Shown here piece after piece: positions 5,039 to 51,276 of a stretch of 64,000 nucleotides of DNA. The number at the start of each line of letters is the position of its first letter. Within the stretch, counting starts at the first letter, position 1. This stretch comes from Escherichia coli O127:H6 str. E2348/69. Lineage in GTDB: Bacteria > Pseudomonadota > Gammaproteobacteria > Enterobacterales > Enterobacteriaceae. Position numbers and translations under genes: made by a program. The stretch lies in assembly GCF_000026545.1 (NCBI RefSeq), contig NC_011601.1. One strand, written 5' to 3'. The notes under the pieces are model-generated. The model was not told the origin of the DNA, made no database searches, and saw only the letters and a list, made by a program, of their open reading frames with translations.

Positions 5039-5230
5039 ATGCGTTATACGGATAGCAGAAAACTCACGCCTGAAACGGATGCCAATCACAAGACCGCTTC
5101 CCCGCAGCCCATCCGGCGAATTACCAGCCAGACACTGTTAGGTCCGGATGGCAAACTGATTATCGATCATGACGGGCAAGAATATCTGCTCCGTAAAACT
5201 CAGGCTGGCAAGCTGCTGTTGACCAAGTAG
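5039..5230 (+). CDS. ydiE: HemP-like small protein
   Basis: 63-aa product starting [14 protein letters not shown] inside the listed 5012..5230 ORF; matches E. coli YdiE. Confidence 0.75.
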
Positions 5231-5233
5231 CCT

Positions 5234-6709
<1,476 letters not shown>

Positions 6710-10635: not shown

Positions 10636-10660
10636 AAAGAAAAAAGGCCGCAGAGCGGCC
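10636..10660. repeat. attL core (direct repeat aaagaaaaaaggccgcagagcggcc)
   Basis: Identical 25-mer found again at 47095..47119; the hairpin ggccgcagagcggcc is the ihfA terminator stem. Confidence 0.85.
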
Positions 10661-10766: not shown

Positions 10767-11183
10767 TCATTCGCTCCCCTCTTTTTCCTTATTTCGTTGA
10801 ACGCCAATTGCGACACACGTACTAAGCAAATCTTTACATTTCTCTACATCTTCAGACTTACGCAATTTGATGCTTTTTACAGACTGCGGGCTACTGTCCG
10901 TAGCACGATACATCGTTATTTCAATATCATTTCGGTCTAAGAGTCCCATAATGGCTTTTGCAACCTCCACACCCTTCTTCGCGAAATCAAAGAACAGAGC
11001 AAGTTTATATGGATTTTCGACGGAAAAAACTTCAATTTTGCTAAAACCAACATCGTGTAGAGAAAAATATTGCTCAACCTCATCTCGAAGTTCTGGATCG
11101 CATACAATGTCTATTCTCCAGTACTGACCTAAATGCAAATCGCTATTAACTGTTTTTTCCACAACATCCTCCTTACCCAGCAA
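10767..11183 (-). CDS. hypothetical protein (cargo gene downstream of int, abutting attL)
   Basis: 138-aa ORF overlapping the int stop by 11 nt; acidic, no recognisable motif; no P2 counterpart at this position. Confidence 0.5.
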   Translation of the reverse strand: MLGKEDVVEKTVNSDLHLGQYWRIDIVCDPELRDEVEQYFSLHDVGFSKIEVFSVENPYKLALFFDFAKKGVEVAKAIMGLLDRNDIEITMYRATDSSPQSVKSIKLRKSEDVEKCKDLLSTCVAIGVQRNKEKEGSE

Positions 11184-45402: not shown

Positions 45403-46092
45403 ATGCCATGTCAAAGGATCCATGTTATGAATATGCAAATTTTTATCGCACCAGCAGCCACAGTTGCTGCAGTCTGCCTTGCTGCATATTTTGCTTTACG
45501 AAATGAACGTAAAAAGAAAGCACTTGAGATTAGAACAACTCAACTAGATCGAATATCTGAGCTAGTAAACCGAGCATCTACCAATTTGATGCAATATACA
45601 GGTACTCTTGCCTCTATACTGGAAGCGCACGCCAAAGATAATTATCTACCGAACAAAAAATTTGACATTAATGTAATTAGCAAATGGAAAGATTGCCTCG
45701 ATGAGAGTGAGGTCTGGGCGATTGATATACAGCAACTAAGAACATGTCAGCACAGTCTGGAGTTTCATCGTGAAAAAGAATGGGCTGAATGGAAAAAAAT
45801 AATTCCACCATTACTTGATAAAATTAACCAATTTTTTCTCATATCTAAGCCAGGGCAACCTGTTACGTTTATAAATGGCCAAAACAAAACAGCTGATGAA
45901 CTACTTGTTTTCTCAAGATATTTGAGAAAACAAACAGCAGAAATTGAATCAGTACGTCAGCTGTTACTTTCTCAAATGAGAGAGGAATTCATCGAGTTAA
46001 CTAGCTTTGAACCTGTCACAATGTTTAGCTTATTTAAATCAATAAAGAAAAATGTCATGCAATTTTTCTGTATCAGTGCTCTTAAAAATTGA
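45403..46092 (+). CDS. hypothetical membrane-anchored protein (AT-rich moron between D and ogr)
   Basis: 229-aa ORF; one N-terminal TM helix (IFIAPAATVAAVCLAAYFAL) followed by a Lys/Glu-rich soluble domain; strongly AT-rich codons; the start may be an internal Met (MNMQ). Confidence 0.55.
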   Translation: MPCQRIHVMNMQIFIAPAATVAAVCLAAYFALRNERKKKALEIRTTQLDRISELVNRASTNLMQYTGTLASILEAHAKDNYLPNKKFDINVISKWKDCLDESEVWAIDIQQLRTCQHSLEFHREKEWAEWKKIIPPLLDKINQFFLISKPGQPVTFINGQNKTADELLVFSRYLRKQTAEIESVRQLLLSQMREEFIELTSFEPVTMFSLFKSIKKNVMQFFCISALKN

Positions 46093-46241: not shown

Positions 46242-46502
46242 ATGTTCCGTTGTCCGCTTTGTGGCGCATCTGCCCGTATCCGCACCAGTCGTCCGGAAAA
46301 TGATTCAAACACCGTGCGGCAAAAGTATTACCAGTGTAACAACCTGGAATGCGGCGTATGCTTCTCAACACTGGAAGCTTTCCATAAATTCACATCGAAA
46401 CACGCCTCCGGCATCCACTCTTCAGAAGGTATCCCGTGGCATGAGCTGCCAGCTTCACACAGGGGAAACAATCAGATGAGCTTGCCTTTACCTCAGAATT
46501 AA
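46242..46502 (+). CDS. ogr: late gene activator, Ogr/Delta zinc-finger family
   Basis: MFRCPLCGASARIRTSR ... YYQCNNLECGVCFSTLE matches the P2 Ogr CxxC-N-CxxxxC pattern. Confidence 0.85.
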   Translation: MFRCPLCGASARIRTSRPENDSNTVRQKYYQCNNLECGVCFSTLEAFHKFTSKHASGIHSSEGIPWHELPASHRGNNQMSLPLPQN

Positions 46503-46562
46503 CAGGCAGAATTGCCGGAGTAACAAAAACGCGATAGATTACGCGCGGGTGCCTTTCGGCTG

Positions 46563-46775
46563 ATGGTCGGAGGGAATACCCGAAGGCCAGATGTGGAAAG
46601 GCCCCGGAAAACATCTCTGTTTAACCGAGGCCCTAACCGCATTACCTTGACAAGTGAAAGGTTAGCGCCTCTCCGGAAAAGGAGCAAGTGCTATGTCGCA
46701 AAAATCGCTTACGGCCATCACGTTCTGCGTGACGGCAATCCTCATCATCTGGATGTTGCACGGTTCGCTGTGTGA
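46563..46775 (+). CDS. mok-like overlapping leader reading frame of the hok-type locus
   Basis: 70-aa ORF overlapping the hok-like gene in another frame, as in hok/mok/sok loci. Confidence 0.4.
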   Translation: MVGGNTRRPDVERPRKTSLFNRGPNRITLTSERLAPLRKRSKCYVAKIAYGHHVLRDGNPHHLDVARFAV

Positions 46776-46833
46776 AATACGGATGAGCTTCTGGGGAGCG
46801 GAGTTTGCGGCGTTCTTACAGTGTAAGCAGTAA
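46693..46833 (+). CDS. Hok/Gef-family type I toxin (small membrane protein)
   Basis: 46-aa ORF MSQKSLTAITFCVTAILIIWMLHGSLCEIRMSFWGAEFAAFLQCKQ: one TM helix, then the Hok-family SLCEIR and AAF motifs; ggag RBS upstream; not in the ORF track (under 60 aa). Confidence 0.7.
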   Translation: MSQKSLTAITFCVTAILIIWMLHGSLCEIRMSFWGAEFAAFLQCKQ

Positions 46834-46922
46834 GGAAACCGCGACGGGGGAGCAATCCCCCGTCAATCGGTTGCCAGGGTAAGGTCGATAAGGCACCCTA
46901 TCTCACAGACATGAACAACAAA

Positions 46923-46954
46923 CCCGCAGCATAAAAACTGCGGGTTTTCTTTTT
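46923..46954 (+). terminator. rho-independent terminator near the prophage right end
   Basis: cccgcag-cataaaaa-ctgcggg followed by ttttcttttt. Confidence 0.65.
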
Positions 46955-47094
46955 GGTGTCCTCACCGACTTGAAACAGTGATCAGACTATAAGACAAAGC
47001 CCACAATGTAGCGGGCTTACTCCCCTCCCCCCACTAAATGTGGACGCATCGTGGAACGAAGAGATATAAAACATTATAAATCAATTAGTTATTG

Positions 47095-47119
47095 AAAGAA
47101 AAAAGGCCGCAGAGCGGCC
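47095..47119. repeat. attR core (direct repeat) overlapping the ihfA terminator
   Basis: Same 25-mer as at 10636..10660; on the minus strand it gives the ggccgctctgcggcc hairpin plus T-tract just downstream of ihfA. Confidence 0.85.
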
Positions 47120-47136
47120 TTTTTAGTTAGATCAGA

Positions 47137-47436
47137 TTACTCGTCTTTGGGCGAAGCGTTTTCGACCCGGCTTTTTAACTTCTGCCCGGGTCTGAAGGTC
47201 ACCACGCGCCGTGCTGTAATGGGAATATCCTCGCCCGTTTTCGGGTTACGTCCCGGGCGTTGATTCTTATCACGCAGATCGAAGTTACCAAAACCAGAGA
47301 GTTTCACCTGTTCGCCGTTTTCCAGAGCGCGACGGATCTCTTCGAAAAACAGTTCAACCAGTTCTTTGGCATCCCGCTTGCTAAGCCCAAGCTTATCAAA
47401 CAGATATTCTGACATTTCAGCTTTTGTAAGCGCCAT
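47137..47436 (-). CDS. ihfA: integration host factor alpha subunit
   Basis: 99-aa [41 protein letters not shown]... recognised as IHF-alpha. Confidence 0.95.
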
Positions 47437-51033: not shown

Positions 51034-51060
51034 ATACAAAAAAAGCCTCCACTGGGAGGC
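51034..51060 (-). terminator. pheST attenuator terminator
   Basis: Minus-strand gcctcccagtggaggc hairpin followed by a T-run, between the pheM leader and pheS. Confidence 0.7.
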
Positions 51061-51109
51061 TTTCAGGCGCTGTTTTCCGTTTCTCTTCTCACGCGCTAGC
51101 CTCCTGGAG

Positions 51110-51154
51110 TCAGGTGCTAAAGTAAAAAAAGAAGCGGAAAATAGCAGCATTCAT
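51110..51154 (-). CDS. pheM: pheST operon leader peptide
   Basis: 14-codon Phe-rich [17 protein letters not shown] found by eye on the minus strand upstream of pheS. Confidence 0.8.
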
Positions 51155-51276
51155 TGCTTGCGTTACCTTTTGGTACTCTTCAAAAGACCTTTATTGAAAA
51201 GGCTACGGCGATAAAAGTCAATGTTTTGATGGCGTTGAAACGAAAAGAGGGAGACTAGCTCCCTCTTTCAACTGGC

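What the first reader, a model, noticed from the sequence alone, without database searches (positions are those of the whole stretch)
46500..46960. hok/mok/sok-type type I toxin locus beside attR
Seen in sequence: a 46-codon ORF (46693..46833), missed by the ORF track, encodes a single-TM peptide with the Hok/Gef signature SLCEIR ... AAF. It is overlapped by a longer out-of-frame ORF (46563..46775), as mok overlaps hok, and followed by two hairpins (46841..46862 and the terminator at 46923..46954). Established knowledge: hok/sok loci act in post-segregational killing and can confer phage exclusion; an antisense sok RNA would be expected opposite the mok start. Inference: a functional or decaying type I TA carried at the prophage right end.
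Basis: partly seen in the sequence, partly recalled or inferred. Interest (0 to 1): 0.5.

Follow-up and report, generated by a model that had tools for sequence, protein, structure and literature searches.

The report
Known Hok toxin locus in prophage

Summary
ORF 46693..46833 encodes a 46-aa Hok/Gef peptide (Pfam PF01848 E 4.8e-7; PHROG 251 E 1.3e-22). It sits in a ~410-nt hok-type mRNA (46547..~46957). The 5' end pairs with the 3' fbi element, and the two stated hairpins are the 3' stem-loop and the terminator.

The window is E. coli E2348/69. The locus lies between ogr and attR (core 47095..47119) of a P2-like prophage inserted in the ihfA terminator.

It is not new. RefSeq annotates it as a Hok/Gef family protein. 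Related DNA occurs in 1548 of 5426 complete E. coli genomes. The identical peptide is entry 72_1621 in a 2025-26 preprint, where it was cloned and falls among the 42 of 45 homologs reported toxic.

A comparison of 31 diverged relatives supports the closed mRNA fold (89% of cells paired, against about 42% for slid controls). A Sok-type promoter (TTGCTC-17-TAACCT, minus strand) sits at the position of the annotated sokW.

Of 63 variants, 36 have no canonical start codon in any frame that stays open to the hok ATG. Its proposed Sok promoter site (46560..46640) is also wrong.

Verdict: an ordinary, already-known kind of locus, probably functional, possibly regulated without mok.

The parts
46512..46540 (+). 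Putative hok promoter: -35 TTGCCG (46512..46517), 17-nt spacer, -10 TAGATT (46535..46540); +1 G at 46547
   Evidence: Read from the sequence. The -35 TTGCC/TTGCG/TTGAAA and the -10 TAnAnT keep their positions in different genomic contexts. Only 8 of 12 consensus matches, so it falls below the scan threshold. Weak hok promoters are expected from the R1 paradigm.
46547..46957 (+). Full-length hok-type mRNA (about 410 nt)
   Evidence: The Rfam sok model starts at 46547. The MFE closes the 5' end on the 3' end, z = -7.6. Conservation with Stx-phage copies runs 46524..46898.
46547..46561 (+). tac element (GGGUGCCUUUCGGCU). It pairs with fbi in the closed form and with ucb in the open form.
   Evidence: Its invariance in my sample is partly by construction, because it was the search pattern.
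46593..46605 (+). ucb / anti-tac (GUGGAAAGGCCCC)
   Evidence: RNAalifold pairs columns 1-14 with 47-59 in all 31 sequences. In the closed form GGCCCC pairs with GAGGCC (helix 5).
46627..46637 (+). GAGGCCCUAAC, at the position of the mok Shine-Dalgarno in R1 and hokW. No start codon follows it here.
   Evidence: Alignment to hokW/mokW. It pairs with ucb (closed form) or with dcb (open form).
46638..46655 (+). Hypervariable loop of the Sok-target hairpin, complementary to the 5' tail of the predicted Sok
   Evidence: Mean column entropy 0.81, against 0.13-0.17 for the flanks and 0.71 for third codon positions. Two tandem copies in L090 differ only here and in the interior of the Sok hairpin.
46660..46671 (+). 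dcb-like box GGUUAGCGCCUC. It overlaps the 5' arm of the helix that sequesters the hok SD.
   Evidence: (helix 7).
46681..46685 (+). hok Shine-Dalgarno (GGAGC; listed as the SD of 72_1621 in the preprint's Table S2)
   Evidence: Predicted paired in the full-length form, P(unpaired) about 0.
46693..46833 (+). hok toxin gene, 46 aa
   Evidence: dN/dS about 0.24 across relatives. The identical peptide was cloned for the preprint's toxicity assay.
46837..46872 (+). It corresponds to the terminal stem-loop that stabilises the truncated hok mRNA in R1.
   Evidence: 100% of cells paired, and 4 of 9 pairs carry compensatory changes (helix 16). The role is inferred from PMC9841398.
46882..46898 (+). 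fbi element (AGGUCGAUAAGGCACCC), complementary to tac
   Evidence: Helix 1: 15 pairs, 95% of cells paired. Six pairs vary on the fbi side only and stay paired through G-C/G-U or U-A/U-G changes.
46920..46957 (+).
   Evidence: It travels with the hok module in most contexts, with sequence variants.
46659..46687 (-). Putative Sok promoter: -35 TTGCTC (46687..46682), 17 nt, -10 TAACCT (46664..46659)
   Evidence: The arrangement TTGNNN-17/18-TAACCT is present in all 64 unique variants. The -10 lies at the same aligned position as in the annotated sokW of 933W, and the sokW probe in PMC8621323 contains GAGGCTAACC. Only 6 of 12 consensus matches, so the scan does not find it. The conservation is confounded with the hok SD and with dcb.
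46595..46651 (-). Predicted Sok antisense RNA (about 57 nt): variable 5' tail, hairpin GGGCCUCGG...CCGGGGCCU, 3' UUUCC
   Evidence: Fold -34.4 kcal/mol, z = -4.05. Six invariant G-C pairs, and the hairpin interior occurs in two alternative forms. The ends are inferred from sokW. No RNA data.
46563..46775 (+).
   Evidence: 36 of 63 variants have no canonical start in any frame open to the hok ATG. A start placed like the window's TTG at -46 occurs in 8 of them, 16 nt after GAGG, which is too far for SD function. The hokW control is recovered.
46242..46502 (+). ogr (P2 late-gene activator), the upstream neighbour
47095..47119 (.). attR core. The attL copy is at 10636..10660. It equals the ihfA terminator.
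   Evidence: The empty site in K-12 is seen.

Best explanation
The locus is an intact hok/Sok-family type I toxin-antitoxin module, carried as a self-contained cargo gene ('moron', promoter to terminator, 46512..46957). It lies between ogr and attR of a ~36-kb P2-like prophage integrated in the ihfA terminator of E. coli E2348/69.

Shown:
- The 46-aa product is a Hok/Gef-family peptide under purifying selection.
- It is identical to a peptide reported toxic on induction.
- The mRNA has the family's hallmark architecture: a long leader, 5' tac paired to 3' fbi, an alternative tac/ucb stem, a target hairpin with a variable loop, a covarying 3' stem-loop, and a terminator.

Inferred by homology with R1 hok/sok and 933W hokW/sokW:
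- The full-length mRNA is stable and translationally silent.
- Slow 3' trimming removes fbi and refolds the leader.
- A short unstable antisense RNA (Sok, minus strand, about 46651 to about 46595, promoter TTGCTC-17-TAACCT) pairs with the target loop and keeps the processed mRNA off and/or has it cleaved.
- Cells that stop making Sok (loss of the element, or a block of host transcription) are killed by membrane damage.

The overlapping ORF 46563..46775 is not a conserved mok. In this Hok cluster, control of the hok SD is probably exerted directly by RNA structure. The GAGGCCCUAAC/dcb stem competes with the dcb/hok-SD helix, and Sok binding would restore the latter.

The biological role (prophage retention, exclusion of other phages, or help with lysis) is not determined.
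For: Identity and context:
- 100% match to E2348/69, where the ORF is annotated as a Hok/Gef family protein next to Ogr.
- att core and K-12 empty site.

Toxin:
- Pfam, NCBIfam and PHROG matches.
- dN/dS about 0.24 over 351 pairs.
- The ORF length of 45-47 aa is kept in nearly all relatives.
- The identical peptide 72_1621 was cloned as pAZ3-72_1621. Only 19_179, 60_1482 and 69_1540 of the 45 tested were non-toxic.

mRNA:
- Rfam sok model E 1.1e-9 on the plus strand from +1 to the hok ATG.
- MFE with 5'-3' closure, z = -7.6.
- Consensus fold with 12 compensatory pairs.
- Closed structure 89.4% paired against 37-43% for slid controls, with 0 of 500 shuffles reaching the observed covariation score.

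Sok:
- Promoter arrangement present in 64 of 64 variants, at the position of the annotated sokW.
- Stable hairpin.
- Tandem copies identical everywhere except in the Sok region.

mok absent.

Structural switch: P(unpaired) of the hok SD is 0.00-0.02 in the full-length form, 0.02-0.31 in the truncated form, and 0.00-0.02 when the Sok-covered region is blocked. This holds in 7 of 7 variants.
Against: - No transcript data for this locus. The Sok ends and promoter rest on homology, and the promoter matches only 6 of 12 consensus positions (one search finds none).
- The Rfam hit is below its gathering score (48.4 against 59).
- NCBIfam hits are far below the curated cut-offs.
- Conservation of the Sok -35 and -10 is confounded by the hok SD and the dcb stem on the other strand.
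- The 5' 17 nt were my search pattern, so their invariance is uninformative.
- The predicted opening of the SD in the truncated form is small, and the AUG stays paired with the coding region.
- Toxicity comes from a preprint that used an artificial SD and an arabinose promoter, not the native locus.
- In R1, translation of mok is required. A non-canonical or very short upstream ORF here cannot be excluded.
Confidence: 0.8

Rival explanations
1. Canonical three-gene hok/mok/sok locus. ORF 46563..46775 (or its in-frame TTG at 46647) is a functional mok. Its translation is needed to open the hok ribosome-binding site, and Sok blocks it.
For: - The ORF exists and overlaps hok out of frame.
- GAGG sits where the mok SD sits in hokW and R1.
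- R1 genetics show that mok translation up to the hok SD is required (PMC9841398).
- 8 of the 63 variants share the window's ORF layout.
Against: - ATG 46563 lies 17 nt from the 5' end, inside the tac stem, with no SD.
- TTG 46647 is 16 nt after GAGG.
- The ORF is broken by frame-shifting indels or stop codons in P88, 933W and most relatives.
- 36 of 63 variants have no ATG, GTG or TTG in any frame open to the hok ATG, while the toxin ORF and the RNA elements stay intact.
- The same test finds mokW.
Confidence: 0.1
2. Decaying, non-functional remnant, like several hok loci of E. coli K-12. The toxin ORF is readable but is not expressed or not regulated.
For: - Chromosomal hok loci are often inactivated (Pedersen and Gerdes 1999, as cited).
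- Some relatives in my sample are disrupted: L013 has a deletion and a stop at codon 2, L066 an insertion at the hok start, L111 an insertion in the 3' UTR.
- Both promoters are weak by consensus.
- There is no mok.
Against: - This allele carries every conserved element intact and is identical or near-identical in many genomes and in P2-like phage genome records in GenBank (P88, Chuche, PhiR44_2).
- Purifying selection on the ORF.
- Compensatory changes in the RNA helices.
- The peptide is toxic.
Confidence: 0.07
3. Functional alternative: the module serves the phage's lytic cycle rather than prophage retention, as proposed for hokW-sokW of Sp5. Read-through from the late D-ogr transcript, or loss of Sok during induction, yields Hok. 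Hok damages the inner membrane and advances lysis.
For: - hokW-sokW roughly doubles Sp5 release after mitomycin C (PMC8621323).
- No plus-strand terminator is predicted between ogr (stop at 46502) and the hok terminator, so late transcripts could run through hok.
Against: - hokW is a different paralog (51 aa, with mokW).
- Nothing here tests expression during induction.
- This alternative is not exclusive of the type I TA mechanism.
Confidence: 0.25

Closest known systems
Hok cluster 72, entry 72_1621, in Escalera-Maurer et al., bioRxiv 10.1101/2025.08.07.668861 (also RefSeq WP_000078916.1 and PHROG 251)
   Same: The 46-aa peptide is identical. It is listed as a member of a high-abundance cluster, was cloned and falls among the toxic homologs. 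Prophage enrichment of hok is described there.
   Different: That work analysed coding sequences only and states that Mok and Sok were not analysed. The mRNA anatomy, the Sok prediction, the lack of mok and the ogr-attR position are worked out here.
hok/mok/sok (parB) of plasmid R1
   Same: - A single-TM toxin with the LCE motif.
- A roughly 400-nt mRNA with tac-fbi end pairing, ucb and dcb boxes, a target hairpin, a 3' stem-loop and a terminator.
- An antisense promoter at the homologous place.

   Different: - Protein similarity is low (Pfam E 4.8e-7; 46 aa against 52).
- No conserved mok.
- The Rfam model scores below its gathering threshold.
- Carried by a prophage rather than a plasmid.
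hokW/mokW/sokW of Stx2 phages 933W and Sp5 (Takada et al. 2021, PMC8621323)
   Same: - A prophage-borne hok module.
- Alignable promoter, 5' end, ucb, GAGG, the AGGTTAGC box (Sok -10 TAACCT) and 3' stem-loop.
   Different: - A different paralog: HokW has 51 aa (MKQQKAM...) and an in-frame mokW with ATG 8 nt after GAGG.
- The same phages carry a second, cluster-72 copy next to lom (L003 1671..1811), which is the true relative of the window locus (81% DNA identity).
HokA of E. coli K-12 (NCBIfam NF007290)
   Same: Best-scoring named Hok subfamily, matching residues 6-45. Similar N-terminus MxQK and a C-terminal AAFLxCK (the HokA sequence is recalled from memory).
   Different: 34 bits against a cut-off of 89, so it is not HokA.

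Membership tests
Hok/Gef toxin family (Pfam PF01848) | Peptide of about 50 aa with one TM helix that matches the family profile | tested here: met
   PF01848 E 4.8e-7 over residues 7-44. PHROG 251 E 1.3e-22 over the full length. NCBIfam HokA E 2.2e-8 and Hok family E 1.4e-4, both below the curated cut-offs. RefSeq name: Hok/Gef family protein.
Hok/Gef toxin family (Pfam PF01848) | Toxic when expressed | not testable with these tools
   Literature only. The identical peptide 72_1621 was cloned under an arabinose promoter, and it is not among the 3 non-toxic homologs of the 45 tested (preprint).
hok/sok type I TA (R1 paradigm) | Long mRNA whose 5' end (tac) pairs with its 3' end (fbi) | tested here: met
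   The MFE closes nt 1-15 on 46882..46898, z = -7.6. 15 pairs, 95% of cells paired in 31 relatives, and changes on the fbi side keep the pairing.
hok/sok type I TA (R1 paradigm) | Alternative leader folds: tac/ucb stem, and the SD-like box pairing with either ucb or dcb | tested here: met
   The RNAalifold consensus gives tac/ucb and GAGGCCCUAAC/GGUUAGCGCCUC. The closed form gives GGCCCC/GAGGCC (helix 5). These pairs are mostly invariant, so the support is conservation rather than covariation.
hok/sok type I TA (R1 paradigm) | Stable 3' stem-loop upstream of fbi, then a terminator | tested here: met
   Helix 16: 9 pairs, 100% paired, 4 compensatory. Terminator at 46920..46957.
hok/sok type I TA (R1 paradigm) | cis-encoded antisense Sok RNA made from a promoter inside the leader | tested here: inconclusive
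   TTGNNN-17/18-TAACCT is present in 64 of 64 variants, at the position of the annotated sokW. The hairpin is stable. The Sok region alone differs between tandem copies. But the consensus promoter scan is negative and there are no RNA data.
hok/sok type I TA (R1 paradigm) | Overlapping mok reading frame with its own SD and start, translationally coupled to hok | tested here: not met
   36 of 63 variants have no canonical start in any frame open to the hok ATG. No variant has a start 5-12 nt after GAGG. The mokW control is recovered.
Rfam RF01794 (sok) | Score at or above the gathering threshold (59 bits) | tested here: not met
   48.4 bits, E 1.1e-9, full model 1-157, on the plus strand 46547..46706.

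The most novel reading that the evidence does not exclude
In this widespread Hok cluster the circuit may work without mok.

- The 'mok SD' box GAGGCCCUAAC would not be a ribosome-binding site but an RNA switch arm.
- In the 3'-processed mRNA it would pair with the dcb box and so strip the helix that hides the hok SD.
- Sok, by pairing with the hypervariable loop and this arm, would return dcb to the hok SD, acting as an anti-anti-SD, and would also trigger cleavage.
- The hypervariable loop would give co-resident copies private Sok specificities.
Probability: 0.4. Interest if true: 0.4.

Novelty: already known. Interest (0 to 1): 0.2.

Why it matters
As a finding it matters little. The gene is annotated and catalogued, and its product has been tested.

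Two points could interest type I TA specialists:
- One of the commonest Hok clusters in E. coli prophages appears to lack mok, the element held to be obligatory in the R1 paradigm. That makes the cluster a natural test case for mok-independent control.
- Tandem copies differ only in the Sok/target region, which suggests selection for private antitoxin specificity.

For prophage biology, the position of the module (a complete unit inserted between ogr and attP of P2-like phages) marks that junction as a cargo site.

Tried and rejected
- The Rfam search at gathering threshold found no hok or sok family. The hit appeared only with the E-value threshold.
- The consensus promoter scan found no sigma-70 site for either hok or Sok. 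Both putative promoters are sub-consensus, like that of R1 Sok (recalled from memory).
- A first 12-mer search for att repeats failed because the search range stopped short of the core. This was solved by comparison with the K-12 empty site.
- I first assumed the locus was the hokW-sokW of Takada et al. 2021, because phage records label it 'MokW-like'. I rejected this once the primers and the HokW length showed a different paralog.
- The search for related loci on genome contigs returned only 5 loci, some from evidently contaminated MAGs, so it gave little cross-species diversity.
- I considered a 3-codon upstream ORF, GUG-NNN-GGU-UAG (46654..46665), as a mok substitute. It has no SD, and the GUG is GUA or GUC in several variants, so I left it as unsupported.
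- PADLOC has no model that matches the toxin or the two neighbouring hypothetical proteins.
- Steif and Meyer 2012 ('The hok mRNA family') is not in the library. I could not check whether mok-less hok loci were already described there.

Full report
**What is there**

The window is E. coli E2348/69. The 471-bp query 46500..46970 matches that genome at 100%, and RefSeq annotates the ORF as WP_000078916.1, 'Hok/Gef family protein', directly after an Ogr/Delta zinc-finger gene.

The 46-aa peptide matches three profile libraries:
- Pfam HOK_GEF, E 4.8e-7.
- PHROG 251 'MokW-like host killing', E 1.3e-22.
- NCBIfam HokA, E 2.2e-8, well below the curated cut-off.

Both hairpins exist:
- A stem-loop at 46837..46872, with its core at 46843..46864.
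- A terminator at 46920..46947 followed by a T-run.

**Context**

The locus lies in a P2-like prophage: tail sheath, tail tube, gpD and ogr on one side, integrase and a repressor-like gene on the other. The prophage sits between btuC and ihfA.

Comparison with the empty site in K-12 and with the left junction gives a 25-bp att core, AAAGAAAAAAGGCCGCAGAGCGGCC, at 10636..10660 and 47095..47119. This core is the ihfA terminator. The hok terminator ends about 140 bp inside attR, so 'beside attR' is right.

The same module sits after ogr in phage genome records such as P88, Chuche and PhiR44_2. At 81% identity it also lies next to lom in Stx phages such as 933W, and it occurs on some plasmids. Related DNA is present in 1548 of 5426 complete E. 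coli genomes, with up to 7 copies per genome.

**The mRNA**

The Rfam 'sok' model (RF01794) matches end to end at 46547..46706, with E 1.1e-9 but 48.4 bits against a gathering score of 59. The match is on the plus strand. What it recognises here is therefore the hok leader, from +1 to the hok start.

The 412-nt transcript 46547..46958 folds to -178.9 kcal/mol (z = -7.6). Its first 15 nt (GGGUGCCUUUCGGCU) are closed on AGGUCGAUAAGGCACCC at 46882..46898, which is the tac-fbi end-pairing that defines hok mRNAs (background in PMC9841398).

To test the fold I collected relatives with the 17-mer at the 5' end. IMG/VR gave at least 120 loci and 64 unique mRNAs. I aligned 31 of them that are less than 97% identical to each other, with median identity 79%.

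RNAalifold returns the open form:
- The tac/ucb stem.
- A target hairpin, GAGGCCCUAAC/GGUUAGCGCCUC, with a variable loop.
- A helix between the hok start region and UUUGCGGCGU in the coding region.
- The 3' stem-loop.
- Twelve pairs carry compensatory changes.

The closed form taken from the window's MFE does well on the same alignment:
- 89.4% of cells are paired, against 37-43% when the partners are slid.
- None of 500 shuffles reaches the observed covariation score.
- The tac-fbi helix is 95% paired.
- The 3' stem-loop is 100% paired, with 4 compensatory pairs.

One caveat applies. The 5' 17 nt were my search pattern, so their invariance carries no information.

**The toxin**

Across relatives the ORF keeps 45-47 codons, and dN/dS is about 0.24.

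The identical peptide is entry 72_1621 in bioRxiv 10.1101/2025.08.07.668861. It was cloned as pAZ3-72_1621 for the toxicity assay. Only 19_179, 60_1482 and 69_1540 of the 45 tested homologs were non-toxic.

**Sok**

On the minus strand, TTGCTC (46687..46682), a 17-nt spacer and TAACCT (46664..46659) form a promoter-like arrangement. All 64 unique variants have it, as TTGNNN-17/18-TAACCT.

In the alignment with the annotated hokW/mokW/sokW of 933W, the TAACCT box falls at the same place, and the sokW 5' end lies 7 nt downstream of it. This puts the Sok start near 46651.

The predicted RNA of about 57 nt has three parts:
- A variable 5' tail.
- A hairpin with six invariant G-C pairs.
- A 3' UUUCC.

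The evidence has limits. The promoter matches only 6 of 12 consensus positions, and the scan finds nothing. Its conservation is confounded with the hok SD and with dcb on the other strand. I have no RNA data.

The best indirect evidence comes from variation. The target loop is the most variable segment, with entropy 0.81 against 0.13-0.17 for its flanks and 0.71 for third codon positions. Two tandem copies in L090 are identical in the CDS (141 of 141), SD, 3' stem-loop and fbi. They differ only in the loop (8 of 17 identical) and in the hairpin interior (14 of 21 identical).

**mok**

The ORF 46563..46775 is not conserved:
- In P88 the frame closes after 31 codons, and in 933W it is absent.
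- Of 63 cluster-72 variants, 36 have no ATG, GTG or TTG in any of the three frames that stays open to the hok ATG.
- Eight variants have the window's TTG at -46, 16 nt after GAGG, which is too far for SD function.
- The same script recovers mokW, an ATG 8 nt after GAGG.

The GAGG box itself is conserved. Here it may act as an RNA switch arm rather than a ribosome-binding site. The dcb box overlaps the 5' arm of the helix that hides the hok SD.

ViennaRNA gives the following P(unpaired) for the hok SD, in 7 of 7 variants:
- 0.00-0.02 in the full-length form.
- 0.02-0.31 after removing the 3' end.
- 0.00-0.02 again when the Sok-covered region is blocked.

The effect is small, and the AUG stays paired, so this is a hypothesis. 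The preprint states that Mok and Sok were not analysed. I could not read Steif and Meyer 2012.

**Comparison and verdict**

The locus works like R1 hok/sok and is a member of the Hok/Gef family. It is not hokW, which is a different paralog in the same Stx phages. It does not meet the 'overlapping mok' criterion or the Rfam gathering score.

Its biological role is open. Candidates are prophage retention by post-segregational killing, exclusion of other phages, and help with lysis as shown for hokW-sokW. No plus-strand terminator is predicted between ogr and hok, so late read-through into hok is possible.

The finding is real but already known. Interest is low, with a modest unresolved point about regulation without mok.

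Noticed in passing
L090 4318..4668 and 5040..5392 (IMG/VR UViG_3300021279_000032): Two tandem cluster-72 hok loci. They are identical in the CDS, SD, 3' stem-loop and fbi, and differ only in the Sok hairpin interior and the target loop. This suggests selection or recombination for private Sok specificity.
   Followed up: partly
L003 1671..1811 and L137 653..927 (phage 933W, AF125520): 933W carries two hok modules. One is the annotated hokW/mokW/sokW. The other is a cluster-72 copy next to lom, unannotated in the original record, whose fbi overlaps the start of ORF L0129.
   Followed up: partly
window 46529..46546, minus strand: A terminator-like hairpin (GCGCGTAATCTATCGCGT followed by TTTTTGTTACT) lies between the ogr stop and the hok +1, overlapping the hok -10. 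It occurs only in the P2-like context and could stop antisense read-through into ogr.
   Followed up: no
window 47051..47195, minus strand: The Rfam STnc540 hit (41.3 bits, above gathering) spans the ihfA 3' end, its terminator and the attR core. The prophage integrated in this terminator, and the distal part of the model aligns poorly with the phage DNA.
   Followed up: partly
window 45427..46092 (+) and 10767..11162 (-): Two prophage cargo ORFs of unknown function. One is a 221-aa protein between gpD and ogr with no PHROG or PADLOC match. The other is a 131-aa protein between the integrase and attL that matches only PHROG 14142 (unknown function).
   Followed up: partly
L066 (about 4501 onwards), L111, L013 401..685: Some relatives are inactivated: an insertion right at the hok start (L066), foreign DNA in the 3' UTR (L111), and a deletion plus a stop at codon 2 (L013). 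This echoes the decay reported for K-12 hok loci.
   Followed up: no
L027, L034, L063, L114, L134 (fbi region): Their fbi reads GGCATCC instead of GGCACCC. This turns one tac-fbi G-C pair into G-U rather than breaking it.
   Followed up: no
window 51036..51160, minus strand: The Phe leader (pheST attenuator) is found by Rfam at 74.4 bits. This is ordinary host sequence downstream of ihfA.
   Followed up: no
PLSDB records CP061270.1, CP061233.1, CP061244.1, NZ_CP124742.1: Records labelled as plasmids, three of 1.0-1.4 Mb and one of 212 kb. Two of them carry chromosomal genes (serS, ykgM-type L31) next to hok copies. They look like chromosomal pieces, so 'plasmid' counts for this hok cluster are inflated.
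   Followed up: no
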